Shown here in pieces: positions 20,430 through 60,167 of a stretch of DNA of 64,000 bases (within the stretch, counting starts at the first letter, position 1; every line of letters begins with the position of its first letter). Position numbers and translations under genes: made by a program. Under the pieces are notes generated by a model that was not told the origin of the DNA, did not search any database, and saw nothing but the letters and a program-made list of their open reading frames with translations. The stretch spans positions 12,196,720 through 12,260,719 of the forward strand of contig NC_079879.1 of NCBI RefSeq assembly GCF_029227915.1, read 5' to 3'. The stretch is from Hydractinia symbiolongicarpus (taxonomy: Eukaryota).

Positions 20430-21239
20430 CTAAAATAAAACGATTTAAAATAAAATTGTATTATCCAATTTTTTAAAAAACATTCCATTTTTATAAAAAG
20501 AACGTCACGCTTTACAAGTATATGCTAATAAAGTTGTGACATTTTTATAGCATTAGGTACCACTCATTTATATTAAAACATTATAAAAACTTCTTGTTTA
20601 TCTTTTGATTATATTGTGTAGAGATTGGAACACTGATCGAGATGATGCACAGGACTAATTTTGTTTCCATGTGGTCTCTAGTTACTGATGGAGAATATGA
20701 TCTCACCTATTTTTAACCGTTCCTAAATTATATGACCCTAAGTTAAAGGGTAATTTAATGACCTCACAAATGATTTTGACACCCATCCATTTTAATTTGT
20801 TGACATTAAAATAATACATCAGATCAAACAGGTTTTCTGCAACTATTCCTACCCTGCTGCTTCCGTTTGTAATAACGAAGGCAATATTAAGTATTCTGAT
20901 AAAGCTATCAACTTCTAGCTTTAAAAGTGGGTGTGTTGACCAAGTTTTCAAAATCGCACTAATTTTTGGTTCAAGGTCCTAGCTAGGCAATCATGAAGAA
21001 TTGTTTGTTTGTCGTGGGGAATTTCATGAAATTCTGTCTGCCTCTAAAATTATTGGCTTGAAAATATTATACAAGATTTAGCCTTGTAGCTGTCCAATGT
21101 CTTTAAATAAAGATATTGGCCCATGAGCACTTCTCCAAAACCTAACAAATGAAGGGATATGAAATATAACCGAATAATGTAAAATCCTAAATCTACTGTA
21201 AACATTGGCCAACTGTAATTTGACAAGTGTGTGTAGTAC

Positions 21240-24008: not shown

Positions 24009-24203
24009 CTGATAATGCTGCAGCAGGACGAGATTTTAGAGGTTGTGGTAGAGACTTTTTAGCTTTCGCAAACCGTGATCGAAGCAGGCCCTCTCCTCCA
24101 AGTGGTGTTGGATGACAACCATATTTTGTAGTAAGTGGTGGAGGTAATCCAGGTGGTGGTGGTGAATATGTAAGATCTTTCTCAGGTGGTAGTTTGGTAT
24201 TGG
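24009..24203 (-). CDS. Polyproline-gene exon P1 (ANTKLPPEKDLTYSPPPPGLPPPLTTKYGCHPTPLGGEGLLRSRFAKAKKSLPQPLKSRPAAALS)
   Basis: Acceptor is attttag|CCAATACC and donor is TTATCAG|gtaacgca. Length is 195 nt, phase 1 to 1. It joins in frame with P2 through P6. Confidence 0.55.
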
Positions 24204-26289: not shown

Positions 26290-26408
26290 CCTTTGCCAAT
26301 TTCTTTTCTCATTATTGAGAATGGACTTGACATTGTGAGTATACCCCTTTTTGATTTAGCCTCGTCACCTACATAAGAATCCTTCTGGCCCATTCCAACC
26401 ATCACACC
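26290..26408 (-). CDS. Actin-derived exon A3 ([39 protein letters not shown], matching actin residues ~42-80)
   Basis: Acceptor is ttcttag|GGTGTGATGG and donor is GGCAAAG|gtaagtagg. The '[17 protein letters not shown]' DNase-I-loop block is identical to actin. The distal part diverges but aligns residue for residue, with the W of ..VTNWDD retained. The exon ends in phase 2. Confidence 0.6.
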
Positions 26409-26499: not shown

Positions 26500-26568
26500 C
26501 TGATGTCTAGGTCTTCCAACTAATGTTGGCATAACAACGCGTGGTTTTTTCTCCCCAGAAAAACCAGC
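26500..26568 (-). CDS. Actin-derived exon A2 (AGFSGEKKPRVVMPTLVGRPRHQ, matching actin '[23 protein letters not shown]')
   Basis: Acceptor is ttttatag|GCTGG and donor is CATCAG|gtgacta. The exon ends exactly at the conserved actin codon 41/42 intron position. Confidence 0.65.
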
Positions 26569-27559: not shown

Positions 27560-27586
27560 CCTTCATTTCATGCATACCAGTATCCA
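27560..27586 (-). CDS. Actin-derived exon A1 (MDTGMHEMK, matching actin 'DNGSGMCK'), possibly extending to 27604 (VKGAVI...)
   Basis: An in-frame ATG sits at the complement of 27584-27586. The donor is GAAATGAAG|gtgagg. A possible upstream acceptor is tttcctag|GTTAAAGG at 27604. Confidence 0.45.
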
Positions 27587-28139
27587 TTATTACAGCTCCT
27601 TTAACCTAGGAAACATAACTGATTTTGAATTTGATACGAAAAATATAATGATATAATGATTCTTGAAAGAAACTTTTACTTCCTAATGAAATTAAAATAT
27701 TTAATTCTTTTCAACTGACTTTATAGCCATTTGATTTTGTCAGGCCAGGAAATTATGGTGGGGAAGGATGTTCATTTAACCGAATTTAACCGAGGGTTCA
27801 CTAGGGTACGGTTCATTGAAACCATTTCGTTGTTAGGATAACAATGGGGTAACAATGTACAAACAGGGTAACAATTACTGAAAATACAGTAGAAAATTTC
27901 TGTAGAAAATGACTGACACAAGTAAATCCTAAAAAAATATTCATAAAATGGTTAAATTTTATTGATTTTTTTTTTTTTTTTGCTTTAGCCTTATATTATA
28001 GCATAATTATTTTTATTTATTTTTATTAAGTCCAGTGTTAATCCGTTGCTATTTTTGTTCTTTAGAGTGACAAATATAATTAGCTTGTGCTTCATTCTAT
28101 TAGGTAAGTGACAAAGAGAGATCATACTGGTAAGCGTTC

Positions 28140-28500: not shown

Positions 28501-28566
28501 AATAGAGAAAAATTATTTCAATTTTTTACACAAAATAAAATTTTAATCTGACCTCCACCTTATCCA

Positions 28567-28790
28567 TTAGATTATTTTTTTCTTCTACCAAAAATGATGC
28601 ATCCAGATCTTCACAATTATCATCTACCAAAAATGATGCATCCCTATCTTCAGAATTATCATCCCAGTCAACAGAACCATAAGAGACACTATCAGAGTCA
28701 GAGTCACTAACTGGGACAGAGCCACAAAATTGATAATAATTTCCTTCTTTTTCTTCTTCTTCTTCAACCTATTAAAAAATTTAGATAAAA
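28567..28790 (-). CDS. Unassigned acidic candidate exon (VEEEEEKEGNYYQFCGSVPVSDSDSDSVSYGSVDWDDNSEDRDASFLVDDNCEDLDASFLVEEKNNLMDK) with an internal ~36-nt tandem repeat
   Basis: An open frame is flanked by an ag|GTTGAAG acceptor and a GATAAG|gtggag donor, both phase 0. I cannot tell whether it belongs to the PARP4-like 3' end, the actin-like gene, or the polyproline gene. Confidence 0.25.
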
Positions 28791-30232: not shown

Positions 30233-30409
30233 TTAACTCACAATTTCTGACTCGACTTCGAATGCCATGTAGGATAAGATATCTATGTTTTCCATCGCAA
30301 CAAGTTCATCTATTGTTGGTGCTGTGTCATCTTTACTTTCAACCCTCTGAATAAAAAAACTACCTTCTTCATCTTGTTCGAAAATGAATCTACTAGAATA
30401 CTCTAAATG
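30233..30409 (-). CDS. PARP4: PARP4-like terminal coding exon (HLEYSSRFIFEQDEEGSFFIQRVESKDDTAPTIDELVAMENIDILSYMAFEVESEIVS*)
   Basis: A NAGNAG-type acceptor ttagag|CAT is required to stay in frame. The continuous ORF ends at TAA, the complement of 30233-30235. An alternative GAAATT|gtgagt donor at 30242 could extend the CDS. Confidence 0.5.
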   Translation of the reverse strand, partial: HLEYSSRFIFEQDEEGSFFIQRVESKDDTAPTIDELVAMENIDILSYMAFEVESEIVS

Positions 30410-33400
30410 CTCTAATAAACATTTCAGGTGTTTATTTAATTTCCAAGATTTTTAGGGTTGTTTATTGAAGGTTAGTATTAAATAGACACTGGGTGTTTAT
30501 TAAAAAAAATAAGAAATTTGAATATTTATTTTTGGACGTTTATTAAAAATAGGAAATCCAAATATTCATTTTAAATATCTTAGGCATTCTCATCACAACT
30601 TCAAATTAATAATTCCTTGAGGGAAACTCTAATAAACTAAGAGGAAGGGCACGTTTAGGGACAGGTGTTGATTAGAGCATTATTATTATAAGAATTGTTA
30701 CATCTAATAACGTATACCTCTCTTTCTTCGATGGCTACAAAGCTTGTAAATTTAGTTACAATTGAGAATTCAATACTCATATCAATAATTTGCTTTTTCA
30801 TTTGCTGTTTTATCATCTAAATATATTTAAGGGAAATATAATTGTGATAAAATTTGAATGCTTGGATAAATGTTTTTAATATTTTTGAAAATAAGAAAGC
30901 AAAAAAAAGACTCCATTTTTTGTTTTTAATTTGTATATTTCTAATAATTTTATTTTTGCTGAATTTTAAGAAAGCTTTTTTTCCTTTTTTAAATATAAAA
31001 TTATATTTAAAATGATAATACTTGTTCACTATAAAACCAAAATTGGGATTTTATCATCGAAAAAAGAAAAAGGAAAGAAAATGCAGGATTTTAGGGGGAA
31101 AAAATATAACACACCTCATGTTGTATTTGGTCCTCATTCAACATTCCATTTTCCCAATCTTCAATAACTGCCTTGGCAGCAAGACGATGTATAGACTAAA
31201 ACAATAGTTTATTTATGTTTTTGTATTCAGCATGCATATTTTACTAGAATTGCTCCAATTTTAGTAATAAATTAAAGTAAACATTTTACCAAGCCAGTTA
31301 ATGTGCTTAGTTCAGATGTAGAGACAAGCGTGGACATTTGCTTTCCATTTACAGAAGCTGTTAATGTTGCCTAAACAATGTAAATTTAGAATAACAGTCA
31401 AACCTTATTTTTTTTTTAAGTTTTAAATAGTAGTTGACAAACAACATACCATAGTGCAATGTGGGACAAAGCCATACACTACCAATCGCGAGCCATTAAA
31501 CAATGCTGTAATTTTATTCGGTGCCTAAAAAAGATTAATCCGTACCAGAACCTTTGTTAACGCAACAGAACCTCTTTTTCGAAGATTAACATCTATTTGA
31601 AAATTGTTCAAGGTGGTCTTTACAGATTATAAAACAGTTTCTCACACCTGTAAAGGTTTTGGAGCATCATAATCATTTTGTACCCAATGAACTTTAACAT
31701 CTGTCAGAACAGGTTGTTGAGACTTCTCGATTTGCATTTTCACCTACAAAATGTAATACATAAGCATTATAAAACTCGTGGACATGGTTTGAATTTATAT
31801 GGTTATTAAATGGAGCTGATGAAAATTCCATTTTAAACATTTATTAATTTACATACTTTTTTCTCCCATTTCGATTTAAAACTATTATCAAAATATTCAA
31901 ACCAACCACTTCCAAGGTCTGCAATTCTTCTTAACACATGTTTATTAACTGTTGAACTAAAAGAGTAATGTTAATGAGAACAATGATTTTATTTATTAGT
32001 AGTATCCAGAACAGAAAGAAAACCAATATTGCACTGACCTTAGTCCAAACGTAAACATCCGGATGTTCTTGTTGTTGCTTTTTATTGATGCTAGTGTTGT
32101 TTCTTCATCTGATATATGTCCATCAGAAAACAAAAACACATTCTTAGGTGACAGTTCTGATCCTAAATGCTGCAGTATAGATAATGGTTTCCAAAGGTGT
32201 GTTCCTCCAAGCGATGGTTTCAAAACCTTAACAAGAAAACCATCTATTTTAACACTCTTCCCAAATATAATGTACATATTTTTAGGAAGGATGCAAGGAA
32301 AATGCTTAAGTGAAGACAAACTAATAAACAATCACTTTCAAAAAGAAGTTAAATTAGAATCGTAATTTTAAGGACTACATATAAAATCTTAAAACTGCAA
32401 GTGGTGGAGAACCTGCAACCCATAAAATAGTAATTCAAAAAAAAAGATGTTTTAAAACATACATTGCATAAAAAAACTTTTTGAATTTCGTTTTGCAATT
32501 TTTTAACTCCCAGAGAAAATATTGCAACGAAATATCTTACAAAAAACTTTTCTAGCTTTGCGTTGCTTTAAAAATTTGACAACACTGGTAAATAAAAAAA
32601 ATCATTGCATGGGAAATGATTAACTCAATACATTGATCTGTACATGGACAATTCAATAACACAATTATGGTTTGCTTTGTACACTGTTCTTTAGTCGTAG
32701 TTTTGAATAATAGTTTAACATAAAAAGTGCTCACCTTTAAGAAAGATAATACAGACTTGTGAGTTTTTTGGGTTTTTGATTTAGGAGCTAAAAACAACTC
32801 TTGCTGTTCTAAAAGTAATACAAAATGTCTGTAACCCTGTTTTACTTACTGTATGGATAGACAAAACTATGAATAAATTAAAACAACATACTTTCACCAA
32901 ACTTGACGATATTAAAAATGGTTCCTTCTGGTAGATTAGTATAAGTTAGATAAACAAGTTTTTGCAGTTCTTTCTCAAGACCCTTAAAATAATAGGACAT
33001 GTTTATTCAATTTTAGACAAACATAAAAATTCTAATAAATTAACCTAAATCAGTATAATTTTGATCGCCTTTTTTTAATTTAAGAAAAGTGTCATGCAAA
33101 TGATAAAAAACAATAGCTTAAAAAATGAGCAGAATAAAAAATCAAGCAAGGAACTTCTAAACTTTACCTTCATTGAGTTAGACAAATCAATCAAAAACAC
33201 AACATCCAACACATCTGTTGACTCACTTTCGAATTCAGGGAAAAATGTCAACATGCAGGCCTTAAAATATAACAGAAATGAAAATAAATACAAAAGCATA
33301 ATTTTAAGACAAATAGAGCCTCATTTTGATCTTGCCTGTGTAGATGCCAGAATATGAAGTTTTTATTTTATTTAGTCACCAATGCGCACTTCTCTTCTAT

Positions 33401-36400
33401 TCAGTCAAACAGACGTGTGACTCAAAGCCTTTGACAATAAAGTTTTACTTTAACCTTTTATATTTTAAATATTTTAAATAAATTGTAATTATTTTTAATG
33501 AATAAATATATTTATATATAAAAAAATAGAGCCCCATAAAATTATTAAAGTACCTTTTATTAGATATTAAAAACATACTTGTTTGTTTGAATCAGTAGGA
33601 TGACGTTGAGCAATCATTCGAGGGACATGAATTTCAGCAAGATCGATTAACAATTGAAATGAGTCACCAAGTGCTTTATCCATAAGATGAACAACAGATT
33701 TTGTAGCAGTTTTCTAAAAAAGTAAATAATGTTCTACTTAAAAAATAAAGTAAATGAAGAAGCCACATATTTTTTACCAAAATATTACTTACCTTAATTT
33801 TTACTGAATGTGTGGGCGAGAAAATTTTTCTGATCTCATACGGCATATCCACGGATAACTGCAGTGAGAATTCTCTAAATCACATTTTGAAGTGCAAACA
33901 TGTAGTGAGTAAATAAAGTTGACAATGCTTGTTAATAAAATGTGTATACAAATATACATCACTGACACACCTTTTTTAACTTGCATTGTTGTTTAAGAAA
34001 GGGAATGGTGTAAAGCAGTTCTTAATACAGTACTTAATTAAAAGGAGTGCTCATTAAAACTACTTTCTATTGTAGACATTAGAAAAGGACACGTACTTAA
34101 GGGCATTCTAGCTGAAGAATGGGGTGATATAGGGGGGTTTATTTGATAAATTCACAATAATAAAAAATTAATGTGTGATACCCCAGTGCTTTATCGTCAT
34201 CAACATTAACTGTAGCAACATCATCCTAAAAAAATAGGTATAAATAGGATTGTTGGTCTCTTTTGAGGTACAAATAAAACCCAATACATATGTCACCAAA
34301 ATCTTACTTGAATTTGAGTAGCCAAAGCAGTTTTCTTGGTCCATGGTGCAACACATCTAGGCAGCACGAAACTAATTTGTTCTCCTTCTAACTGAAGTTC
34401 TGCTACGTATGTAATTTTTATTAAGACGTCAGCATGCGGTGGGAGATTCCCAACACTTACAGTGAAAACATCCTGCAGAGACCAATCATAAAATAATGTT
34501 TTTTCTTTTAAAAATATAGTACGAGATTCTGATCTTAGATTCATTTTGACTAAATAGGTAACTTAATACCGTATTGTTACATAATACAACAAAAAATGGT
34601 AAAAATCCTGATAAATATCTTACAGCCTGTTCTTCTTGTTCTTCCATAAGATAAGCACCATGACCTTTGCTGATGGCTTCCTTGTATTCTTTTCGTGCTT
34701 GTTCTTTTTCTTTTACGTGACCGATTATGTGTTTACCATTAATAAACGCTTCAAAACCACACACTACAGGATAAAACAATAAGTTAAAACATCCATTAAT
34801 TAATACGCAAATAAAAACACTGTTTTAATTATTATTTTTTAAAATTGGAAAATTTTTTAAAACAATTTTTTTAATTACACATACCTGCTGCCATACTGTC
34901 TAAAGGAAACACATATTTCGCTTCGATAGCTACGGTACTTTCATTGGTGTAAGCTTGAAGAACCACAACCTTCAAGAATGATATTGGTTTCATAATATGT
35001 TAACAAAAAATAAATGTTAATGCAGCAAAGTCTGAAGTCATAATTAGTAGCATTGAAGCTAAGTGTAACCTTGTAATGTATAAGTGGCCTTGTGAAGTGT
35101 GCAGGAAAGGGGTTGGTAGTAACTCAATTTTTTGTCAGACTTGTAAGCATTGGGTACATAGAAGTGCAGTAGTAGAGAAAGGTTAGCAGTTGACATTCAG
35201 TTTATATGCAAACATTGCAAAGGTGAGATTATAGAAAAAGTCGTATTTTCAGCTTTAATAGTGTACAACGGTGGCTCATTGTTATGCTTCTGTTATTTAG
35301 ATGGTATGTTCCCTAAGTAGATAGGTAGTGAAGGGGGTGTTATAAGAAGTGTTATTTGCTGGACAGATTTTGCTTTGAAATAATGTGATTTTGTTACAAC
35401 AAAAATTTCCTTTGTAGATAATATTTCATACCTCAGAAGCTAAGTCTTGTAACTTTGCTCTAACATGAACTGCAGTCAGAGGTATTTTTGAATCACCTGT
35501 ACTTTGCAAACCAGCAGCAACTTTGTTTAAAGGATTCTCAACATTTTGAACATCATCCAAATTGAAATCTATTATATAATCTATATTATAATACCCGTAT
35601 ACGTCTGTCTGTCACGCAAAATGGTACCGCAAGCAGTGAGACGCACACAATGCAGTATAAAAAAACGGGCTAACCCTTGGATTTTTCCATGGGCCATAGA
35701 CTAGTATGTAAAGTTTCTGTTGAAACAACATAACAGGTCTGTATTGATTGTTTACAGTTAGATGTTTCACTACCCTTTCTGGATTTCTTCCAATATGACC
35801 TTTACCACCCAACACATCATAAAAACTAAAAAAACTTTGTTGTCTCTAATCTTATCTTTGCAACACACAGCTGTTGGCAACTCTTAACCTTCCGCAATAC
35901 CTAGTGGTAGTGTTATCAATGAGAATCTTGCAAAGGGGGGTCTAGAGCATTTAAAGCTTCCATTTGAGCTACAGAAGGTGTGTAAGTACAACAACCACTC
36001 TGCTATACCACTGCCCAAGATATCAATCTTATTCTCATGTTTATGTTTACGAGAACAGTGATTCACACTTTTATAATCTGTAGCATGACTCAGTCGAAAT
36101 TGAACTCACACCCTTTTGCACTGGAGGAGGCAATCAGTCGGCAAAGAGTCAGACGAAAAATTGAGTTGTTACCAATCACTTTCCTGCAAACTCCATATGG
36201 CTGCAGTCCAACTATAAGATCAAACTTTGCTTCAATGCTGCTAATCATGGCTTTAGAGACTCTGCTACATTCACTCTTAACCTTTTTCTTTTAAGCATTT
36301 CTTCTACTTCTCAAGCTTTTTAACTAATTCTGCCATTGATTCTGCTACGGAAACTAAATCATCTGCCTGCAATAAACTCAATGGATACTCTGTTCTGAAC

Positions 36401-39400
36401 TCCATCAACAAACCACAAAGGATTGATTACAGAACCCTGATTTACACCAACTGTTATTATGCTAAATTCATTCAGCACTGAAGTATTACACTTGTGGGAC
36501 AAAATGTGTTATGCAAACACAACCTGTTATCTAGTTTTTTGAATTCACAACTCTCTCAAGAGATTCCAATGAAGAACTTGAAGCATAGTCCCTCAAGGTA
36601 CATTCACATGAAGTATGGAATAAAACAGTCCATAAATTTAGTTTTAAAAACTTCTCCTAATAAACTACAAAACTGCAGCAAAGAACCTCAAAGGAGAGTG
36701 AAACCTTGGCAAACACTCCTTGGAAGAGATTAAATTATTAAGCAAAGGAGTAGGCAGAGAACAAAACTAATAGGCTGGATAATAAAAATAACACACTGCC
36801 TTTACACAAAATATTAGTTTTGGACATACATGATTTTCACATCGACAAATTCTTCTTATGCCTGTGCTGAACAGCCGAAGTTTAAATCTGACCCTGCTTT
36901 TTAACAAAATTTAATATGTTACTCGTATTATTCAACTATGGAATGTTTTAATACACCTGCCATAACTAGATAGCCACTAAAGCTAAACCGATTGGGGTTT
37001 TGTTTATCTTTTACACTAACTGATTAACTAAATGTGATACAAATGCAAATATATTTTGTTAAAAGGGCAATGACAGATAGAATTGGTGCATAAAACTAGC
37101 ATAAACAAATTATATCAACCACTGTTTATTATTTACCTTCTTCTGACTGTTCCATGTCCGATTCGATACCTTCATCTTCAGATAGTTCAGGATTAAACTT
37201 ATGTACAAGAAGGGTGTCTTTTGGCGTTTTAAATTCAACAATATGCCTAAAGTAAAAATTAATACATTTTAACAGTAGATTTACATAGGTGGTGTATGCA
37301 TTAAATTTAAAAATATAACACTTACGTAACTTGCAGCCTTGAAACATCATAAATACAATATTCATCATCCTGTATAACAAAAAAAGGTTGCACTGATATT
37401 CTTAAACTTCAGAGAATTTAGTAACTAAGGGATGTTTATTGGTTTTGATTATGTACTATGACACATAAAAAGTGAGGTCAACTCCTTAAAACAGGCCTTT
37501 GTTTTTACAGTAAAGGATTAAAACTAGTTAGTTTTTTGCCCCATTGCCTGGTCTGTAAAATAATCGCTCTATGTGAAGTTGTAATAAAGCATAGTTTTGT
37601 TAATTTTTTTTGAAGAAGTATTGACATTGAAATGAAAGTATTGATAAATTTTTCAGTCAGTACAGGCAGATAACTTTTTATATTTTTAAACTTCTCTACG
37701 TATGAATAGTTAAGTTGAAAATTAATGTCTCTATTATAATAGCCGTATTCCGTCTGTCTGTCTCTGCGCGGAACCCCCGCTGAGTTAGAAAATTATGTTA
37801 CGGAAACACGAATATCAAATGCGATATATTTTTATTGACTTTGTTTTGACCGCTCGCGCGTGGAACACCATTCACAACGCCTGATTCTTTAAAAAAAAAC
37901 CAAGATTTTCGCGACCAGAAAGAATCCAAGATCTTCGCGGAACGAAGGCCATTTTGATAATGGTCGTGTTTGTGGTCAGTGTGTGAGGTTTGTAGGCCTG
38001 TTTGACTTTTTTATCTTCTAAAAGCCTTATATATTTGTAATATTTGTTTTCTGTTTGTTTTCAATGTTAGGATAAATATATTGTCACGTTTTTTAGCCAC
38101 GTACAGATCTAAACGCACCAGTTTTAGGATGTTTGGCTAGGAACGAAGATTAGCTAGCTATAGCTACTAGCTAGCTAGAGCCCCACTTATTGCTATTATG
38201 TATGGTATAAGAGCTTTTTATCCTAGCCAACATTTATTTTTATGTTGAGGCTGTGGCTATTTAGCTAGCTCCTTAAAAAGTGAAAGTATAAAAATGCAGT
38301 TTGGCTACAACAATATTCTTAAGCAATATATAATTTTTATGCTAAATGCAGTTAGCTAGCTAGGTATAGCTACATATTTTATAATTTTTCTGCAAACTTT
38401 TTCTGCAAATGAAATGGCTGAGCGATTGTTTTGGCTGGACGAGTAACGACAGGCTGTTCCCTGTGTTTTTATTTAAACCGAAGTTGCAATGAACATTTTT
38501 GGAAAAGGGTAATACGCCTTATGCGCCTGTTCAATTGTGTTTAACTGTACTAAGCGGTTAGCCCAGTGTTAAAAACAGACTGTTTTTTGTAAAAGGCTGT
38601 TACGCCTATGGGCATGTGCAACACCGTTTACCTGTATATACTAAGGTCAGCCCACCACTGTGACAATTAATTTTTAAACTTTCTTGGGAATCACGCCTGG
38701 ACTAACCGCTCAGCCCTGTGTCTGCGAGAAAGTTTTTTTCAAAAGGGTATTATTCCTATACGCTGTGCAACACGGTTTAACTGTACTAAGCGCTCAGCCC
38801 AGTGTCACGATTAATTTTTTAACTTGCTCAAAAAGTTATTCTGCAAAATGAAATAAAATTGACGATTGTTTTTGCTATGATGGAGTAACAACACTTTGTA
38901 AACTCTGTTTTTATATCAGTTATCGTTGCGGGAAAGTTATTTTTTGAAAAATATGTTACAGTCGCACACTATAATGGTGTATGCGCTTCAAAAGATTAAC
39001 GACATACTGTATACCTGTACTAAAGCGCTCCACCTGATCGTGTGGGACAGTTTACGGCTCTTATTAAGCGCTCCACAGAGTGTTCAATGCCGGATCACAC
39101 CTTTACTTGTGGCTTAACCCAGCGTTTCGACGCCGGGTTTCCCGGCTATCTCTTTAATAATAGCCGTATTCCGTCTGTCTGTCTCTGCGCAACATGGCGG
39201 AGCAAGTAGCGAGACCCGTCGAAAATCCCCGCGGCCCTGCAGCTTTACTTCGAATCCCCGGCAGACCCCGTTGTTTTACCGGCCTTGCTTTGCCGCTCAT
39301 TGTAATAAACCAATCACGAGGCTCTATTTTCACTAATGACCAATCCAAGTGCTTCGCGGCCTCAACATGCCGACAGGAGGAAACATGCTACCCCTACGAA

Positions 39401-42400
39401 GGCCATTTTGGTTTGGAAGTGATGGTGTGAAGTTTGTAGGTTTCCTTTCAATCCTCCTTATTTCTTCTGAGTACTTTTTATCCTATAGGATTGTTTAGTT
39501 TGTTTTCACATGTTAAGGTGAATATTTCATCACGTTTTCTAGCTACGTATAAATCTTAAACAAACCAATTTTAAGTTTTTGGCTAGCTACAAAACGTACA
39601 TTTTGAGGCAGCTAGCTAAAGCTATCTTTATTTATTCCTATTCTTTTAAAGTTTTTATTCAGTTTGGTATATTATTATTTATTTTTATGTTGAAGTTGGG
39701 TCTACCTAGCTAGCTCCTCTTTTAGCTACATCCTGCTAAAAAGTGAAAGTAGCCAAATGCAGTTTGGCTGCAACACAATTTATAACAATTCTTATGCTAA
39801 ATGCAGTTGGCAGCGGCCACTTTTATTACTGATTTAAAAATTTAGTATGCAAAATAAAATTGCTGAGTAATTTTTTAAACTAAACCGGGTTAATGCCAGG
39901 CTGTTCACTGATTTCTTTTAAAACCGAAGCGATAAGGATTTTTGGAAAATGGTATTACCCCTATGCTCATGTATGACACGATTCACCTGTTAAGCGCTCA
40001 GCCTGGTGTTAACGACTGGCTGTTTCCTGTGTTTTTATTTGAACCGTTGTGATAAATTTTATTTGGAAAATTTTATTACGCCTGTTACTCATGTATGACA
40101 CAATTTACATGTTAAGTGTTCAGCCTGGTGTTAATGACGGGCTTTTTTTCGTGTTTTTATTTAATCCGTTGTGATAAAGTTTTTTTACCTGCAATAAACA
40201 TTCAACCTGGTGTTAACAACAGGGTGTTTTGTGTTTTTTTTATTTAAATTGAAGTTGCGATAAGTTTTTTTGGGAAAAGGCTATTATGGCTATAACGCAT
40301 GTGTGACACCATTTACATGTACTAAGTGCTCAGTCCGGTGTCATGATTAATTTGTTAAGGTTTACTGAAACGTACTCCACAAAATAAAATAATATTGACT
40401 ATTTTCTTTTCTTATGACTGGGTAACAACAGGTTGTAAACTGTGTTTTTATTTCGGTTAAAGTTGCAGTAAAGTTATATATATACATATATTTTAAAAAG
40501 TACATTACAACCGAAACACTATAATGTTGTGTGAGCTTTACTCAATTCACGACATATTCTGCATACCTGTACTAGAGCACTCCAAGGAGTTTTTTTAGTT
40601 TTTTTATGGGGTAACGACTGGATTTTTCCTGTGTTTTAAGTTAAACCGAAATTGCAGTAAAGTTTTTTATGAAAAGGGTATTATGCGTTCTCGGCCCACT
40701 GTCATGATTAAGTTTTGAACTTTTACGGCAACTTATTCCGCAAAATAAAATAATATTGCCCGATTGTTTTTGCTATGGCGGAGTAACAACGGTTTGTAAA
40801 CTGTTTTAATTCAGCTTTTGTTGCGGGAAATTTTTTTTTTTAAATATCTTACAGTCGCAACACTGCAATGGTGTGTGCCCTCCACTTGATTTACGACATA
40901 CTGCATACCCGTACTAAAGCGCTCCACCTCACCGGGTCGCACAGTTTGCGGTTCTTATTAAGCGCTCCTCAAGGCGTTCAACAACAGTTACTTATGGCTT
41001 AACCCGGCGTTTCCACGCCGGGTCTCCCGGCTATCTTTAATAATAGCCGTATTCCGTCTGTCTGTCTCTGCGCGGACCCCCGCTGAGTTAGAAAATGATG
41101 TTACGGAAACACGAATATCAAATGCGATATATCTTTATCCACTTTGTTGCGACGGGTAAAGTTGAAGGACGGGCGACCCCGTGGATTTTTCCACGGGCTA
41201 ACGGCTTATATATATAATAATCAAATCAAAAATTTAAACTTAAATCCATTCAAAATGATCAGAATGCAAATGAACAAAAATGACATGGCACATAGATTTT
41301 TCAACTTTTCTATGTTTTCAAATAAAGCTGTACTCTTTTTTCTTGATCTTCGCAACAAAATACAATTTCGAAACTTATTCAAGATGTCTTGGAGCCTTTA
41401 GGTGGTTGCCCTAGTAATATTTAAAATACTAAAATATGTTTTCGTACAATATCTTTAACATAGAATTATCCCAGCCTCTTCACTAGAAGAAACATGACAA
41501 GGTATTTCTATTTACATTGCATACACAACCGTTCATATACAAGATGGTTTAATTCTATTTTATGTGTGCTTTTATTCCTTTGCTTTAAAAAACTTTCAAT
41601 ATCCCTAACGCATATGTTATGAAGATTTCTGATCAAAAACTTGGAGTGACAACTTCAACAATGGTTACTTCTAAATATAACCTTTAAATATATATATATA
41701 TATATAGAAAAGGTGTATTTAGAAATACACCATGCAATAAAAAAACATACCTTGAATTCTGAAGGCACTTTACTTGTACTTTTAACACCATGTGTGCTGT
41801 CAAAACCATTTGGAGGACCAACTAAACTCTGATTAAACTTAAAATAATCCTAAAGTAAATAAAAAAACCTAGTACCTCATGAGAAGACTTTGTGCCAAAT
41901 TACATTTTTTTAATCCATCCATAATTTTAGATAGTTGCAATTCGTGAACATTTATAGATTCTAAGTATAACCTCCTAATGAATGCTTATTAGATTGTAAA
42001 AATATATTTTTTTAAAAACCATCCAAGTTCAAAAATTAATACTGATGGAATATTGAAATTGCAAATTCTAATTACCTCAAAATACAATTTTAGAGCAAAA
42101 CACTAAACAAACTATTTTACCTTAGTTTTTCCTAATGATAATTGACATGCTAACATGAATCGGCTACCAGTTAGTGAAGATGGCTTTGAATATTTTATGC
42201 AAGTTCTATAAATTACAAAGACTTTTTTTTTTGCTTGTTTTAGAAGGTTGGTAGTATTTAATGGAGACATTAAAGGATTATGATAGGTTATAAAGTTAAA
42301 AAAGTCCTTAGTATATGACAACTTTCTTGCTGCTAGGGGCCTGTTTATTTTTATTTGAAGAAACCTTGAAAAACATCTGCATCAAAGGTAATCTGGTATA

Positions 42401-45400
42401 TTACTACACTTATTTTGTCTATTAAAATGGCTTCACACAGTTTGATTTCTGATCTGCAGATGCTGACAGATGAAACTATCTGAAATGGTAGCACACTGCT
42501 TACAGACGAACAAAGATGACGACAGATGCAGGAAATATCTGTGCTTGAATCCCCTCATAGAGTTGTATGTCACAAAACATTCGTCAACTTAAATGAATAA
42601 AACTTGGAAAATATGTATATGAGGAATGTATCTACTGTCTGTACCAAATTTTATTATAGAATCTAATGACTTACGTTGGACAGGTTGCAAAATATATTCC
42701 ATTCCCAAGCATTCCAGCATCTGTACGGCTTCCACCATAATCATCCACCACAATTTTTGGCAACAGTAATCCCCTAAAATAATAATGAACAATTTTGTTA
42801 TCAAAACCACTGTAAACAATAACCAGGATCTTTTTTCAAGTGTGCTACAATCCCAAAAGAGTAAAAAATGACCCAGTTACCAATAACTCATTTTGCATTT
42901 TTAAGATTTCTAATGTAATACAGAACACTAACAACATTTTTTTCTTCTTCTTTTTTTTCACACACTTAAGTGTTTGAACAGTATGTTGCAATACCACAAA
43001 ATTATAAATGATAAATTGGCATGTATTTTACCTTGATAATATTCCAACAAAATTTTTTGCCTAGAACGGTAAAATAATACAATCTGTTAGTAAAATTGAA
43101 TATTACCAAAATAAGAGTTGCATATTCAAATCAAATTATTCAAAGACCTAGAACAAGCAAACAAATACAATAACAATGTATTATTAATGTTAGGAGTTTT
43201 GACAGTTAGGATAGCTGATGATTTGATTATTTAGTTAATTAAAAAAAAAATCGATTTTCTCTGAACGATCTTTGCTTTTTATGTTCAGAAAATGTCCTAT
43301 AAATTAAATCCCTGAAATTCAAATTTGGAAGAAAAAAATATTTTTCCCCAGGATATTATTATTTCCTCGTTAATTTTACACATGAAGAAATGAATTAAAA
43401 AAAAACTTAAGTAACTCTGGTTTTGGTTTCATCCATATTCTGATTTTATGAATTAAGAAAATAAGTCGATGAAAGCAATTAATAAAATAATACAATTCAT
43501 TATCAACAACAAAAACAAAAATAGATAAATTGAAGTAGTACCTCAGAAGCATGGAAAAATGGTCCCGACTTGTCACAATGCAATTTCGGTTCTGAGCAGC
43601 GATCCAATTCAAATATATTTAAAACTTCAATTTTTTCTTCACTGTGTAGAAAGAAATTATCATTATTATACCAACGCAAAGATTATTCCATATCTTCTCA
43701 ACACCTCAGAAACAAAAGCAAACATCAGCAGTAAAACAATTTTTTGAATTTCGTTGAAGTGTAATTGCAGTTTTAACTAACAACCTTTTCAGTAAAAAAA
43801 ATATTAGAAGCACAAATAATACCTATTAATAGCATTTATAATATCTTTATGCACTTCCTTGTACCTTTCACCATGCAGTTTTTCGATATGGCAGCCTAAA
43901 GCTTTATACTTTGCTTCAGCGCTGGTTTTAGTTTGCCAATTGGTAGATTCATTGATGCTTGCAAAATCTTTCATAAGCTTATTAAAAAAAATGATTTGTG
44001 AACAAAAAATACATGTAAAAACTTGAACACGAAACTTAGACAAGATACAAGAAATACAGATCATATACCTGACATAAATCTGACTTTTGAGAAATTATTT
44101 TCATGCTGTCAATCATGATCCTTTGATTATGGCGATGTTGAATGACATCATAAAATTCATCACTTAAATCTTCAACTGCCTGTTTATTCACAACACAATC
44201 TTTAAGACGTAGTAAAATCCCTTCAGCTTTCGTTACATGAGCCATATTGTATGATTTAATTGGATTTGCTAAAACTTCATTGAGTTTACCATGAGCTTCT
44301 GTCCAAAATGTATCAATTAGTGCAGAAACCTCAGAGGAAAGCTCATTTATACTTTCAAATGTGCGATTCGGCCACTAAAAGGATGCAAAATTAGAAAATA
44401 CACGCCATGTAAGGTAAAAAACAATAAACGTTTTTTATGTATAATACAGTTAAAAAAGGTATACCATATATAAATATTCGGTCCCAATAAGCAATGATTT
44501 TGATAGATTTGTTTGAACAGTAGTCATAGCAAATGAATCACTCCATAAACCCAACACTTCTTCACTTTCTCTTCCAGTAGATGTCACACGATACTCAGAT
44601 TTGACATCAAGAGGATTCTACAGTAACAAAATTTTGAGAGATTCCATAAAGAACGGAATTAATCACTCTAAAAATCACCTTTCATCTCTACACATGGAGC
44701 AAAAGCATTTGCAAACAAGAAAAATGCAAGATTATCTCTCTTAGACATCAACATGTTGTGTTGGATTTGTAAGCCTTTGTGGATTACAAAATGAAAAAGT
44801 GTGGTGCAGATAAACAAATCATAGAAACCTTGCAATACAGGTGATCTCCATATTGATGCCATACTCTGTACTTCTTATTGTTTTGTTCATCAACTTGCAC
44901 ATGCAACTCGAATAAATGAAAAGGAATTTTTTCTTGTTTCTTAGATTCCTAAGTAAAATCACATGCTAACAGTAACAGGGCTATCTTTAAAGTAAAAAAA
45001 TATAAATTTATTGTAGTCTGGACTCCTAAAGTTACCTTTAAAAGGACATATTTTGGAACTTCAAAAGGAGTATTTTTCCAAGGTCCATCTACCTTGTCTG
45101 ACCAGATTCTAAAACACAAATTACAAGACATTGGCATTAATGAGGGATACCTCATAATTTGTATTGTATACAAGTTTTGCTCAGATATTTATTTTCAGAT
45201 AGCTTCTGTTTGCTTTCTCTTAGACATCATTGATTTTTAATCTTCCTCCTTGTCTTGTATTTAGGAAACATTTTGTCATTTTGTTCACTGGGAATAGCCT
45301 TTTGATCTTTCTATATTAAATCTCTCATGACGCTGCAAATATAAAATTGGTGTGCAAATATGGGGTGGGTCCTAACAGAAGGATGACAAATAAAAAATGG

Positions 45401-47707
45401 GAGCTTAGAAATGGCTTCACACTATGTTATATATATGTAAAAATTATGAAATATGGTGCTGGCACACAATAAAGCAAAAATTGAAAGTAAACAAAAAAAA
45501 CCTGCTCGTTTTACACACTCTGCCTTAAAATGAAAGATTTGTTGGTCAACACTTGGTCAACCAACAATCCAGCACTGGCATGCATGCACTTTCTATTTTA
45601 ATTAACCCTGCACAAGGATACAGGGTCAGGCCTCTCTCCCTTCCCCCAGATTTAAAGAAATTTATTGGACTGTCTTAAGTTGCTATTCTAAGCAATATAA
45701 CAAGCTTAAATTGCAAATGAGTCAATAGGAAAATCAAGTCATAGAAATATTCAATTAAGGTATGTTACTTTGTTTATGATATATTTAGACCCAACATGAG
45801 CTCACACCTCTCTTTTTTAAAAATTTGTTGAATCACATACAATAATATTCATCAGTCTTCTTATCAAAAGATCTTGAAAAATTTACATTACACATGTTTA
45901 AAGATACACAATAGACAATATCCCTAACGTTATAAGAACATAAAACAAAAATGAAAGCTGGGCGGCTCTGTGTGAAACAACTACAACACTAAATCATAAC
46001 CTTGTCATCTCTTCCAGTGTAGTCAAATAATGAAAAATTACAAGCTTTAAAGGAAACTCACCTGAAGAACAACAACATAAGGTCTTAATTAGAAGCATGC
46101 ATTAAAAATGTCCTCAAAACATTACATAACAAAAACAAACAAATGTGTTCACTATTTCAACAACCAGAAAAAAATAATTAGAGGACAAGAATTCTTCTAA
46201 GGAAGTATAATTTTTTTTAGGAAAAATGACATAAAATACTAACTTTAGGCTAGCTAGATTAACCTCTCTTTTTCTCAGTTTCTTGTCATTACTGTGCGCT
46301 AAAAAGAAACAAAACAAGTTTATTATTTCACACTTTTTATTCTAATACTTGACCAAAGAGACATAATGAACTTAGAAAAAAAGATCAGATGAGCAGTTTA
46401 TAAAAAAGAAGAGTATTATGTCAGACAAAATCCCTAACAACCTCTATTTTTATTTCACTCGAAGCAAAAAGTGTATTTCACAACAAAATCTTTTTAATTT
46501 TCGCAGTTATGTTCTTTCTAAAATATAAAATGTTGGGAATCTAGTAAAAAGGAATATTCATCAAAGTTCTAGCTATTTTGGGTCGACTTAATTTTATTTG
46601 ATTACAGCAAAACACCATAACTTAAGCTATAACTTGATTTTCATTTAATTCTGCATCTTTTAATTTTTATCAAATTCGCAAGTGGAATCTGAGACAATGA
46701 CTAACATGTAATACTGGGTCTTAAGTATAAAGAAACACACTATATAGCTTGATAAAACACAAACATACTTATTACAATCTTTCCTGTCTTTAATTCATTG
46801 CTCTCCAACTTTTTGAAGACTAAATAGGGCTCCAAATCAACCAGCTTTTGTGACAGCAAACAATTTTTAAGAAAGTCAGAAGTAATCACAGGGATGTTGT
46901 ATGTTCTTGCTCGTTCACATCGAAATGAGGATTTTGCATATTCTGCTGTTGACACAATCACATGAGTTGTCTAAACATTTAAGTCAAACGCAAATTATAA
47001 AAAATTTGTGTTTCATTCAAGAAAAGTAAGAAAAAGTCATTTTAACAACAGTTTCTTCTCTGGATAGGCTGTGTTGTGAAAAACTACAGTGTGCATATAC
47101 ACAGTCCTTTTACACCTGAAAATACATAAAGATAATCTAAGCAGTGGAAATAAATAGAAACAATCACATAGTCTTTGCGTGGTGCAACATCGAATTTCAT
47201 TACATTATGCAACAACTGCCTAGAAATTAACACACACAAGATGTCTACAAATAATAAAATGTTATAGTCTTTTGATATTTTAAGAACAATATACAACAGT
47301 GATATTTACACTTTGCAAAAAAGCTTTTAAGCAGTTTTATAATTATCATTAGACTATACAGTTAATAATAACAATGATGTTTCAAAAAAGGTTATGATGT
47401 TTAAACTAAATGTTTAGAAAATTGCAACAGTTAAAACAGAATCGTGATACTTTCCAAAGACATTTATATTTCAAATTTTGTTCATTATCAAGCAGGTCCT
47501 TTGCCAGTGATATTGCTTATTTTGACTGGATAAAAATTTGATAGGCTATAAAATGATGACGACTCCAGTTTGCTATTTACTTACTTTCTTTGTAACAATA
47601 TAACTGATAACACCATTATTTTTGGTGACAATCTGACGTAGATTTTGCCTGTCTTTGAGTGAGGCTGTAATTCCTATGTCCAGCGTAAAAACACAGTTTG
47701 AAAACAT
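30233..47707 (-). CDS. PARP4: Vault poly(ADP-ribose) polymerase (PARP4)-like gene, whole CDS span of ~30 exons: BRCT, PARP regulatory/catalytic, VIT, vWA
   Basis: Exons read across splice sites. N-terminus MFSNCVFTLDIGITASLKDRQNLRQIVTKNNG matches human PARP4 'GIFANCIFCLKVKYLPQQQKKKLQTDIKENGG'. BRCT block is HVIVSTAEYAKSSFRCERARTYNIPVITSDFL. Catalytic blocks are PFFHASEAKNFVGILSRGLLLPKIVVDDYGGSRTDAGMLGNGIYFA, SRFMLACQLSLGKTK, FDSTHGV and DDEYCIYDVSRLQV, which match the PARP H-G-S / Y / E signature context of PARP4. VIT block is CGFEAFINGKHIIGHVKEKEQARKEYKEAISKGHGAYLMEEQ...DVFTVSVGNLPPHADVLIKITYVAEL. vWA block is VVFLIDLSNSM..GGTHLWKPL..VFLFSDGHISDE..FTFGL. The stop codon is at 30233-30235. Confidence 0.8.
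31118..33250 (-). CDS. PARP4: PARP4-like vWA-domain exon cluster (~8 exons, including ~33157-33250 'VVFLIDLSNSMK', ~32055-32290, ~31850-31955)
   Basis: It carries the vWA MIDAS-type 'DxSxS' block (FLIDLSNSM), 'GGTHLWKPL', 'VFLFSDGHISDE' and 'RMFTFGL'. Exon boundaries are approximate. Confidence 0.65.
34330..35568 (-). CDS. PARP4: PARP4-like VIT-domain exon cluster (4 exons, ~35432-35568, ~34900-34984, ~34640-34777, ~34330-34487)
   Basis: ..PLTAVHVRAKLQDLASE | VVVLQAYTNESTVAIEAKYVFPLDSMAA | VCGFEAFINGKHIIGHVKEKEQARKEYKEAISKGHGAYLMEEQEEQ | DVFTVSVGNLPPHADVLIKITYVAELQLEGEQISFVLPRCVAPW. This matches the VIT consensus of VWA5A, ITIH and PARP4. The acceptor of the first exon (aatag|ATTTCAAT, 35568) directly abuts a solo repeat copy. 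Confidence 0.7.
35575..35700 (+). mobile_element. Solo short copy of the same repeat family (head TATAATACCCGTATACGTCTGTCTGTC plus hairpin CCCTTGG-ATTTTT-CCATGGG, ending CTAG)
   Basis: It is collinear with 5925-6035 and with the 41043-41210 short copy. Confidence 0.5.
37326..37369 (-). CDS. PARP4: PARP4-like catalytic exon with the catalytic Glu region (DDEYCIYDVSRLQVT, matching PARP4 'DDEFVVYKTNQVKMK')
   Basis: Acceptor is tacag|GATGATGAATAT and donor is GTTAC|gtaagtg. Length is 44 nt, phase 0 to 2, joining in frame to 37137-37246 (HIVEFKTPKDTLLVHKFNPELSEDEGIESDMEQSEEG). Confidence 0.65.
37736..41210 (+). repeat. Head-to-tail tandem array inside a PARP4-like intron: 2 full units (~37736-39162, ~39163-41042) plus a 165-bp third copy, all of the TAATAGCCGTATTCCGTCTGTCTGTCTCTGCGC-headed element
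   Basis: Identical 33-nt heads sit at 37736, 39163 and 41043. Each unit ends ...GCCGGGT(T/C)TCCCGGCTATCT(C)TTTAA (a perfect palindrome) immediately before the next head. Each unit holds ~150-bp internal subrepeats (...actgtactaagcgctcagcc(c/t)(a/g)gtgt...). Units 1 and 2 are collinear over more than 1 kb. Confidence 0.7.
41751..41849 (-). CDS. PARP4: PARP4-like catalytic exon (DYFKFNQSLVGPPNGFDSTHGVKSTSKVPSEFK)
   Basis: It matches PARP4 'DLHEKDFSLTEAPPGYDSVHGVSQTASVTTDFE'. Acceptor is ctttag|GATTATTTTAAG and donor is TTCAAG|gtatgtt. It is the last exon before the 4.4-kb intron that holds the tandem array. Confidence 0.7.
42675..42773 (-). CDS. PARP4: PARP4-like catalytic exon carrying the nicotinamide-pocket 'G(x)3GIYFA' motif
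   Basis: GLLLPKIVVDDYGGSRTDAGMLGNGIYFA matches human PARP4 'GLLLPKVVEDRGVQRTDVGNLGSGIYFS'. Acceptor is ttttag|GGGATTACTG and donor is CCAAC|gtaagtcat. Confidence 0.75.
43542..43641 (-). CDS. PARP4: PARP4-like catalytic exon (EEKIEVLNIFELDRCSEPKLHCDKSGPFFHASE, the H-G-S motif region)
   Basis: Acceptor is ctacacag|TGAAG and donor is TCTGAG|gtactac. It joins in frame to the 29-nt exon at 43032-43060 (AKNFVGILSR) and to 42675-42773 (GLLLPKIVVDDYGGSRTDAGMLGNGIYFATCPT). Confidence 0.7.
44069..44374 (-). CDS. PARP4: PARP4-like exon (PARP alpha-helical regulatory domain; ..LSDEFYDVIQHRHNQ.. matches PARP1 'LSNRFYTLIPHDFG')
   Basis: Acceptor is cttttag|TGGCCGAATCG and donor is TTATGTCAG|gtatatgat. 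Length is 306 nt, phase 0 to 0. Confidence 0.65.
46769..46970 (-). CDS. PARP4: PARP4-like exon 2 (BRCT domain core, TTHVIVSTAEYAKSSFRCERARTYNIPVITSDFLKNCLLSQKLVDLEPYLV...)
   Basis: Acceptor is ttag|ACAACTCATG and donor is GTAATAA|gtatgtttg. A BRCT-like hydrophobic core is present. The phase join to the next catalogued exon is unresolved, so intervening exons may be missed. Confidence 0.6.
47585..47707 (-). CDS. PARP4: PARP4-like exon 1 (start codon, N-terminal part of the BRCT region)
   Basis: The ATG is the complement of 47705-47707. The donor is AAAGAAAG|gtaagtaaat at the complement of 47583-47584. Length is 41 codons, phase 0. Confidence 0.65.
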
Positions 47708-60083: not shown

Positions 60084-60167
60084 GTACTTTCATGCTACTT
60101 TTATTTTTCACCAGTTAATGATTTTCATAAATATTTATGTTTTTCTTATTATATTAAATTTATTTAG

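What the first reader, a model, noticed from the sequence alone, without database searches (positions are those of the whole stretch)
30233..47707. Vault-PARP (PARP4)-like gene with a compact BRCT-PARP-VIT-vWA architecture that ends just after vWA
The exon-by-exon translation gives the full PARP4 domain order: the N-terminus matches the human PARP4 N-terminus, and it is followed by BRCT, the PARP regulatory helices, the catalytic H-G-S/Y/E blocks, VIT and vWA. The ORF stops ~60 aa after the vWA-associated region at 30233. There is no ~700-aa vertebrate-type C-terminal MVP-interaction region, unless the acidic exon at 28567-28790 is spliced on. A short vault-PARP in an early-branching animal bears on how the vault-targeting tail evolved. 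Several exon joins (44.6-46.8 kb) remain phase-inconsistent, so micro-exons are probably missing. One candidate is ttttag|CGCACAGTAATGACAAGAAACTGAGAAAAAGAGAG|gttaat at ~46265-46299.
Basis: partly seen in the sequence, partly recalled or inferred. Interest (0 to 1): 0.6.

Follow-up and report, generated by a model that had tools for sequence, protein, structure and literature searches.

The report
Full-length vault PARP (PARP4) gene
This is an ordinary full-length PARP4 (vault PARP) gene of a Hydractinia-like hydrozoan: the apparent early stop lies inside an intron, and the gene runs another 25 kb to encode an actin-like fragment, proline-rich repeats and a vertebrate-type vault-docking domain.

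Summary
Pfam confirms the order BRCT, PARP regulatory helices, PARP catalytic (His-Tyr-Glu kept), VIT, vWA. A spliced alignment to the closest homologue, Hydractinia symbiolongicarpus PARP4-like (1732 aa, 90.6% identical), gives 33 clean GT-AG exons from 47707 to 30242. This removes every phase problem.

Between the two parts lie phase-compatible exons. These are an acidic cassette, three exons that mimic actin residues ~6-70, and five or six proline-rich cassettes. Hydra vulgaris PARP4 (1930 aa) has the same tail order. The predicted protein is 1488-1897 aa. The middle-exon joins are inferred, because no transcripts were available.

Verdict: an ordinary PARP4 orthologue, already annotated in related species. 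The only notable point is a fast-changing tail built from fragments of host proteins.

The parts
47585..47707 (-). Exon 1 with the start codon (ATG at 47707-47705); start of the BRCT domain
   Evidence: Spliced alignment to P0001. An in-frame stop lies upstream. Pfam BRCT covers aa 2-90.
46769..46970 (-). Exon 2, rest of BRCT
   Evidence: 97% identical to P0001.
46244..46298 (-). 55-nt micro-exon (tHSNDKKLRKREVNLASLk).
   Evidence: ttttag|CGC ... AAA|gttagt; aligns to P0001 aa 109-127.
44465..45108 (-). Three exons (45108-45036, 44948-44829, 44617-44465) between BRCT and the helical domain. They are WGR-like by position (YRVWHQYG).
   Evidence: The WGR assignment is an inference from the published human PARP4 domain map (PMC10711553); there was no Pfam hit.
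43823..44374 (-). Two exons (44374-44069, 43977-43823) encoding the PARP regulatory helical domain
   Evidence: Pfam PARP_reg aa 280-360, 25.7 bits against a cut-off of 26.8.
37137..43641 (-). Seven exons of the ADP-ribosyltransferase domain: 43641-43542 (His, FFHASE), 43060-43032 (29-nt micro-exon), 42773-42675 (Tyr, GIYF), 42205-42121, 41849-41751, then a 4.4-kb repeat-filled intron, 37369-37326 (Glu, DDEYCIY), 37246-37137
   Evidence: Pfam PARP aa 382-554, E 1.2e-18. H/Y/E align with a human-like PARP4.
34308..35568 (-). Four exons encoding the VIT domain (35568-35432, 34969-34885, 34763-34624, 34472-34308)
   Evidence: Pfam VIT aa 615-727, E 9e-37.
31857..34225 (-). Eight exons: 34225-34182, 33874-33793, 33713-33579, then the vWA domain in 33260-33168, 32982-32892, 32808-32735, 32226-32039, 31956-31857
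   Evidence: Pfam VWA/VWA_3 aa 866-1022.
30242..31743 (-). Six post-vWA exons (31743-31648, 31524-31450, 31370-31290, 31195-31115, 30816-30718, 30346-30242); the last is exon 33
   Evidence: 91% identical to P0001 aa 1030-1208.
30233..30241 (-). Consensus 5' splice site GTGAGT (30241-30236) followed at once by TAA (30235-30233).
   Evidence: Sequence. The downstream 30233-30050 is homologous to a coding exon extension of P0001 but carries three in-frame stops.
28559..28768 (-). Acidic cassette exon candidate (70 aa, phase 0-0), with an internal 39-nt duplication
   Evidence: aatag|GTT ... AAG|gtggag. Tandem repeat at 28584-28663. In frame in the 41- and 46-exon models. Inclusion is inferred only.
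27561..27605 (-). Actin-like module, exon 1 (VKGAVIMDTGMHEMK, matching actin aa ~6-18), phase 0-0
   Evidence: tttcctag|GTT ... AAG|gtgagg. Aligns to Hydra PARP4 'RPIILDTGMAETK'.
26500..26568 (-). Actin-like module, exon 2 (AGFSGEKKPRVVMPTLVGRPRHQ, matching actin aa 19-41), phase 0-0. The intron sits after HQ, between actin codons 41 and 42.
   Evidence: Pfam Actin positions 18-65 of 410, E 3.5e-8.
26291..26408 (-). Actin-like module, exon 3 ([39 protein letters not shown] + 1 nt). It shifts phase 0 to 1, which is needed to reach the MINT exons in frame.
   Evidence: tttcttag|GGT ... AAAG|gtaagt. With the consensus exon-33 donor, skipping the module gives nine stops.
14549..24203 (-). Proline-rich cassette exons, all phase 1-1: 24203-24009, 20429-20262, 18322-18218, 16268-16131, 14959-14549. 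A sixth copy, 18667-18602, has a GC donor.
   Evidence: Acceptor and donor sit at paralogous positions in each copy of a ~2-kb tandem duplication. A 33-nt repeat array lies at 14560-14908. Hydra PARP4 has PPPPPPP repeats at the same place. Inclusion is inferred.
7921..7983 (-). Exon (G)LSEIEMQERILGKKNQNFFS, phase 1-1, the lead-in to the C-terminal domain
   Evidence: aligns to P0001 aa ~1530-1550.
4631..7543 (-). Three exons of the MINT-like C-terminal domain (7543-7413, 5838-5748, 4956-4634) and the TGA stop at 4633-4631

Best explanation
The locus is the single-copy PARP4 (vault PARP) orthologue of a hydrozoan closely related to Hydractinia symbiolongicarpus. It is a ~43-kb minus-strand gene (47707 to 4631) of 40 to 46 exons, and it encodes a protein of about 1490-1900 aa.

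Shown:
- 33 canonical exons encode BRCT, a WGR-like region, the helical regulatory domain, an ADP-ribosyltransferase domain with an intact His-Tyr-Glu triad, VIT and vWA.
- Four further exons at 7983-4634 encode a helical C-terminal domain homologous to the vertebrate MVP-interaction (MINT) domain.
- The TAA at 30233 lies immediately after a consensus donor.

Inferred from reading phase, splice signals and the Hydra orthologue:
- The core is joined to the MINT exons through an actin-derived three-exon module (actin residues ~6-70, D-loop fully conserved).
- An acidic cassette and several proline-rich cassettes are optional additions.

Mechanism, by homology with human PARP4 and not tested here:
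- The C-terminal domain docks the enzyme on MVP repeats inside the vault.
- The N-terminal PARP1-like region binds NAD+ and ADP-ribosylates targets.
- VIT-vWA and the variable tail recruit partners. Here these would be actin- or profilin-type cytoskeletal proteins.
For: - **Family:** the 120 listed best hits carry PARP4 or poly(ADP-ribose) polymerase names, or that domain set where unnamed. The top hit is H. symbiolongicarpus PARP4-like at 1926 bits.
- **Core model:** the spliced alignment gives 33 GT-AG exons with no frame break, 90.6% identity over 1210 aa.
- **Domains:** Pfam finds all of them. H-Y-E aligns with a human-like PARP4.
- **C-terminal exons:** they are found in the window with canonical sites, 82% identity.
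- **Intronic stop:** donor ATT|GTGAGT then TAA.
- **Frame:** the 40-, 41- and 46-exon models are all open to the TGA at 4631. Going straight from the core to the MINT exons from the consensus donor gives nine stops.
- **Hydra:** Hydra vulgaris PARP4 isoform X11 has the same order: core, actin fragment, polyproline repeats, C-terminal domain.
Against: - No transcript data exist for the source species, so every join between 30242 and 7983 is inferred.
- The six RefSeq isoforms of the closest relative contain no actin-like module. They read through the exon-33 donor into a Ser-rich linker and 19-aa FG-type cassettes.
- A weak alternative donor at 30238 (A|GTTAAT, phase 1) could join exon 33 directly to the phase-1 exons.
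- Of the three MINT residues that the human structure paper names at the MVP interface, only the Lys aligned with K1618 is kept. S1614 and R1689 are not.
- Foldseek against the PDB and an HMM search of PDB sequences did not find PARP4.
- The AF2 model has a mean pLDDT of only 66.
Confidence: 0.85

Rival explanations
1. One reading: the protein really ends at 30233 (about 1210 aa, BRCT-PARP-VIT-vWA only), produced by intron retention or early polyadenylation, either as the main product or as a substantial isoform.
For: - The frame does run into TAA at 30235-30233, and an ATTAAA lies just after it.
- The sister species has truncated isoforms X5 and X6 (1371-1390 aa) that lack the C-terminal domain.
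Against: - The stop follows a consensus GTGAGT donor.
- Intact, conserved downstream exons, including the MINT-like domain, are kept at 82% identity.
- No listed isoform of either hydrozoan orthologue ends at this point.
- ATTAAA is expected by chance in DNA of 30% GC.
Confidence: 0.08
2. The middle exons are not part of PARP4. On this view the actin-like pieces are an actin pseudogene fragment, the proline-rich units are a tandem repeat or transposon relic in a 22-kb intron, and exon 33 joins the MINT exons by another route, for example the weak phase-1 donor at 30238.
For: - The H. symbiolongicarpus isoforms lack an actin module.
- The interval contains LINE-like fragments and dispersed repeats.
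- ORFs of 80-100 codons are not rare here.
- The donor at 30238 would keep the frame into 7983.
Against: - All three actin-like exons have strong acceptors and donors and open frames. They share derived residues with the Hydra PARP4 module (DTGM.E.K, VV.PTLVGRPRHQ, ILT.SSPF), not with actin.
- PARP4-like proteins of Hydra, Ptychodera, bivalves and a brittle star carry the same fragment.
- All five or six proline-rich copies keep AG and GT at paralogous positions in phase 1-1, matching the phase left by actin-like exon 3 and needed by exon 7983.
Confidence: 0.07

Closest known systems
Hydractinia symbiolongicarpus PARP4-like, isoforms X1-X6 (XP_057306523-29; P0001 = X2, 1732 aa)
   Same: - Same exon-for-exon core, 90.6% identical over 1210 aa.
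- Same C-terminal domain (82%).
- Cassette-type repeats that end in Lys plus a split Gly codon before the C-terminal domain.
   Different: - Its tail is a Ser-rich exon-33 extension plus 19-aa KGFCFGNVAPQIASSGTVS cassettes, with no actin module in any listed isoform.
- In the window that extension carries three stops, and the tail is acidic, actin-like and polyproline instead.
Hydra vulgaris PARP4 isoform X11 (XP_065649889.1; P0127, 1930 aa)
   Same: Same overall order: BRCT-PARP-VIT-vWA, then an actin fragment (Pfam Actin positions 6-65 of 410), PPPPPPP repeats and a helical C-terminal domain. The core is 56.5% identical.
   Different: Its linkers are longer and different, and its repeats carry FG as well as polyproline. 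It keeps the Arg aligned with human R1689, which the window lacks.
Human PARP4 / vault PARP (PDB 9bw6, 9bw7; Lodwick et al. 2025, PMC12280208)
   Same: Same domain order, H-Y-E triad and a homologous MINT-type C-terminal domain. A hypervariable region lies between vWA and MINT, which in mammals is under positive selection (PMC4038475).
   Different: - The core is only 36% identical.
- The vertebrate linker is one large disordered exon without actin-like or polyproline cassettes.
- Two of three named MVP-contact residues differ.
- Vault association is untested in cnidarians.
PARP4-like proteins with appended actin, 14-3-3 or ubiquitin domains (Perina et al. 2014, PMC4245714)
   Same: A C-terminal appendage derived from actin on a VIT-vWA PARP, already reported for Salpingoeca, Capsaspora and Acanthamoeba. 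An Acanthamoeba VIT-vWA-actin protein also turned up.
   Different: Here, and in the other animal PARP4-like tails examined, only actin residues ~6-70 are present, split over three small exons and followed by a MINT domain. That paper names no cnidarian case in the passages read.

Membership tests
PARP4 / vault PARP (PARP clade 5) | N-terminal BRCT domain | tested here: met
   Pfam BRCT_2 E 2.9e-11 and BRCT E 2.3e-7, aa 2-90.
PARP4 / vault PARP (PARP clade 5) | PARP catalytic domain with the His-Tyr-Glu triad | tested here: met
   Pfam PARP E 1.2e-18. FFHAS, GIYF and DDEY align with the human-like HGS, GIYF and DDEF.
PARP4 / vault PARP (PARP clade 5) | Helical regulatory domain before the catalytic domain | tested here: inconclusive
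   Pfam PARP_reg 25.7 bits against a curated cut-off of 26.8. The human-like PARP4 itself scores only 25.3.
PARP4 / vault PARP (PARP clade 5) | VIT followed by vWA after the catalytic domain | tested here: met
   VIT E 9e-37 (aa 615-727); VWA_3 E 3e-19 (aa 866-1014).
PARP4 / vault PARP (PARP clade 5) | C-terminal MVP-interaction (MINT) domain | tested here: met
   [not shown]
PARP4 / vault PARP (PARP clade 5) | Physical residence in vault particles through binding to MVP repeats 3-5 | not testable with these tools
   Only the Lys aligned with human K1618 is conserved; the S1614 and R1689 equivalents are not. An MVP transcript is known from Hydra (PMC2386466). No vault RNA was found in the window.
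   A GTGAGT donor precedes the stop. MINT-type exons lie at 7983-4634 on the same strand, in frame through the intermediate exons.
Actin | Complete actin fold (about 375 aa, nucleotide-binding cleft, four subdomains) | tested here: not met
   Only Pfam Actin positions 18-65 of 410 match. tblastn with beta-actin finds nothing beyond residue 70 in the window. It is an actin-derived fragment, not an actin.

The most novel reading that the evidence does not exclude
The region between vWA and MINT in invertebrate PARP4 may be an evolving array of baits copied from abundant host proteins.

- In this hydrozoan it is the actin N-terminus with its D-loop, plus polyproline profilin/EVH1-type ligands.
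- In other phyla it includes a 14-3-3 half, ubiquitin, the ribosomal P-stalk tail, an HSP70 piece, EF-hands, and histone-H3-tail look-alikes with the K4/K9 positions replaced.
- The baits would work either as decoys for pathogen toxins and effectors that target those proteins, or as adaptors that pull their binding partners into the vault.

The turnover of the tail between the window and its 90%-identical relative would then be the invertebrate counterpart of the positive selection seen on mammalian PARP4 exon 30.
Probability: 0.15. Interest if true: 0.7.

Novelty: new member of a known kind. Interest (0 to 1): 0.25.

Why it matters
Hydrozoans already have the vertebrate-type arrangement, with a catalytic core, a variable linker and a MINT-type docking domain. 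So the vault-targeting tail is not a vertebrate invention. It dates at least to the cnidarian-bilaterian ancestor.

The practical value is a corrected 40-46-exon gene model for a species without annotation.

The one point of wider interest is the tail:
- It holds an actin D-loop fragment conserved from cnidarians to deuterostomes.
- It differs sharply between two close relatives.
- This fits earlier evidence that this part of PARP4 is where the protein meets fast-changing partners (PMC4038475, PMC4245714).

Tried and rejected
- **Orthologue locus:** exact look-ups of P0001 and P0124 for the H. symbiolongicarpus locus found no record. I could not compare introns or check whether that species has the actin-like exons.
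- **FG-type cassettes:** tblastn of P0001 aa 1190-1560 found no FG-type cassettes in the window.
- **Pfam on the tail:** the C-terminal domain and the acidic exon gave no Pfam match. My Pfam copy also gave no PF26156 or PF26166 match on a human-like PARP4, although both are in its precomputed list.
- **First profile comparison:** a two-sequence hhalign was inconclusive (E 0.1). It became significant only with eight sequences.
- **PDB searches:** Foldseek against the PDB and an HMM search of PDB sequences missed PARP4. The weak Hcp1 hit there (E 0.0024) is taken as chance. The afdb50 library was unavailable.
- **Low-penalty spliced alignment to Hydra:** it produced spurious exons between 22.5 and 8.2 kb. 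I discarded all except 27605-27561.
- **Tail database search:** a second search with the predicted tail was swamped by actins and gave no transcript-derived fragment of the source species.
- **Coordinate error:** I first mis-set the end of actin-like exon 3 (26297 instead of 26291) and corrected it.
- **RNA genes:** Rfam and ARAGORN found none in the window.
Full report
**What is there.** The window is AT-rich eukaryotic DNA of about 32% GC. Stop-to-stop reading frames on the minus strand between 47.7 and 30.2 kb carry recognisable PARP4 sequence. A rough concatenation of these pieces was searched against the protein collection. It returned 158 proteins with E <= 1e-10. The 120 listed carry PARP4 or poly(ADP-ribose) polymerase names, or that domain set where they are unnamed. 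The best was Hydractinia symbiolongicarpus 'PARP4-like isoform X2' (P0001, XP_057306524.1, 1732 aa, 1926 bits). The next best was a hemichordate protein at 47% identity. The source is therefore a close relative of that species. I cannot name it.

**Gene model of the core.** I wrote a protein-to-genome spliced aligner and aligned P0001 to the minus strand.
- It gave 33 exons from 47707 to 30242, each with AG/GT boundaries and no frame break, 90.6% identical over 1210 residues.
- Pfam on the assembled 1208 aa finds BRCT (2-90), PARP_reg (280-360; 25.7 bits against a cut-off of 26.8, and a human-like PARP4 scores no better), PARP (382-554), VIT (615-727) and VWA (866-1022).
- The catalytic His (FFHAS), Tyr (GIYF) and Glu (DDEY) align with those of a human-like PARP4.
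- The Glu lies in the 44-nt exon beyond the 4.4-kb intron.

**The 'stop' at 30233.** The sequence reads ...GAA ATT|GTGAGT TAA. A consensus donor is followed at once by the stop. Downstream, 30233-30050 is still recognisably homologous to P0001 residues ~1208-1264, where the sister species reads through. In the window this stretch has three in-frame stops. So it is not coding here.

**The C-terminus exists.** P0001 residues 1542-1732 align to four further minus-strand exons: 7983-7921, 7543-7413, 5838-5748 and 4956-4634, followed by TGA. All have canonical sites, and identity is 82%.

A full HMMER scan of 1.8 billion representatives with this domain found Hydra vulgaris PARP4 isoform X11 (P0127, XP_065649889.1, 1930 aa) and several short fragments.

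Three results tie the domain to the vertebrate MVP-interaction (MINT) domain:
- A profile of these eight sequences, compared with 65 vertebrate PARP4 C-termini, gives hhalign probability 96.8%, E 2.8e-10 over 142 columns. Reversed-sequence controls give E 0.4.
- The same profile hits vertebrate PARP4s only at their extreme C-termini.

Foldseek and a sequence HMM against the PDB missed it. Of the three contact residues named for the human complex (S1614, K1618, R1689; PMC12280208), only the Lys is conserved here. Homology is therefore well supported. MVP binding is an inference.

**The middle.** tblastn with all the homologues revealed an actin N-terminal fragment on the same strand. It consists of three small exons with strong splice signals:
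- 27605-27561 (VKGAVIMDTGMHEMK)
- 26568-26500 (AGFSGEKKPRVVMPTLVGRPRHQ)
- 26408-26291 ([39 protein letters not shown])

These are shown. Pfam matches Actin positions 18-65 of 410 only, and no more of actin is present. The Hydra PARP4 tail has the same module with the same derived residues. PARP4-like proteins of a hemichordate, four bivalves and a brittle star carry it too, always with [16 protein letters not shown] intact where the model reaches it.

Further on there are five proline-rich units, 24203-24009, 20429-20262, 18322-18218, 16268-16131 and 14959-14549, plus a sixth with a GC donor at 18667-18602.
- They lie in a ~2-kb tandem duplication.
- Each keeps an acceptor and a donor at the paralogous position.
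- All are phase 1-1.
- Phase 1 is exactly what actin-like exon 3 leaves and what exon 7983 requires.

The concatenated models of 40, 41 and 46 exons are open to the TGA at 4631, giving 1488, 1558 and 1897 aa. Joining the consensus exon-33 donor straight to 7983 gives nine stops. A weak donor three bases on (30238, A|GTTAAT) would also keep the frame, so skipping the actin module cannot be excluded. All joins in this interval are inferred, because no transcripts were available.

**How it most likely works.** By homology with human PARP4 (PMC12280208, PMC10711553), the C-terminal domain docks the protein on MVP inside the vault. The PARP1-like N-terminal region uses NAD+ to ADP-ribosylate targets. 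VIT-vWA and the linker bind partners. MVP is expressed in Hydra (PMC2386466), so vaults plausibly exist in hydrozoans. The actin D-loop fragment and the LPPPP/GPPPPP-type repeats suggest cytoskeletal partners. This is speculation, in line with Perina et al. 2014.

**Comparison and novelty.** PARP4 orthologues are annotated in H. symbiolongicarpus and in Hydra. PARP4-like proteins with appended actin, 14-3-3 or ubiquitin domains were described in 2014 (PMC4245714). Hypervariability of the vWA-MINT linker is known from mammals (PMC4038475). This locus is therefore a new member of a known kind.

Two things are mildly new. The MINT-type domain reaches back to cnidarians. And the tail composition differs strongly between two relatives whose cores are 90% identical: the window has acidic, actin-like and polyproline segments, while the listed H. 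symbiolongicarpus isoforms have a Ser-rich linker plus FG-type cassettes.

**Verdict.** The PARP4 identity is supported. The 'compact, tail-less' architecture is refuted. Interest is low (0.25). The most novel reading still open is that invertebrate PARP4 tails are bait arrays of host-protein fragments. I give that about 15%.

Noticed in passing
Related proteins P0002, P0007, P0008, P0010, P0011, P0014-P0019 (not in the window): The tails of invertebrate PARP4-like proteins are mosaics of fragments of abundant host proteins. They include actin aa ~2-57, the C-terminal half of 14-3-3 (Pfam positions 124-217 of 223), a whole ubiquitin, the ribosomal P-stalk tail (SDEDMGMGLFD; Ribosomal_60s positions 68-88 of 88), an HSP70 piece (417-517 of 599) and four EF-hands. 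Gastropods also have histone-H3-tail look-alikes (RTNQTARMSTGGKAP, RTRQTARRSTGGRAPR) in which the K4 and K9 positions are replaced. Some of these could be gene-model artefacts.
   Followed up: partly
window 30050-30233 (minus strand): The sequence just after the exon-33 donor is homologous to a coding exon extension in H. symbiolongicarpus PARP4 (aa ~1208-1264). In the window it carries three in-frame stops. The linker route therefore differs between two close relatives.
   Followed up: partly
window 37734-37762, 39155-39183, 41038-41066 (minus strand): A dispersed repeat (GACAGACAGACGGAATACGGCTATTAT...) has three near-identical copies inside the 4.4-kb intron that splits the catalytic domain. 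Diverged copies seem to lie near 35.6 kb and 6.0 kb. It is probably a short interspersed element. No tRNA-like head was found.
   Followed up: partly
window 28181-28512, 21749-22198, 36093-36290 (minus strand): These ORF fragments look like the 3' part of non-LTR retrotransposon ORF2 (e.g. RLNWLGHFERM...RGRPRKTW; CGVWRKGV...). They sit in PARP4 introns, and Pfam gave no hit.
   Followed up: partly
window 56999-60568 (+ strand): The upstream neighbour encodes at least three SH3 domains followed by a proline- and lysine-rich stretch (Pfam SH3_1 E 2.5e-29). It resembles CD2AP/CIN85-type adaptors, and it is transcribed divergently from PARP4.
   Followed up: partly
window 50-361 and 766-1002 (minus strand): These ORFs lie downstream of PARP4 and have a weak WSC-domain match (E 3e-4, below the cut-off). 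They probably belong to the next gene, which is cut by the window edge.
   Followed up: no
[not shown]
   Followed up: no
Proteins P0230, P0231, P0232 (ENA contigs): These unnamed ~720-740-aa proteins combine an actin match with PF26156 (a family otherwise listed only on vertebrate PARP4 here) or with Ribosomal_60s. They may be further PARP4-type tails in unsampled eukaryotes.
   Followed up: no
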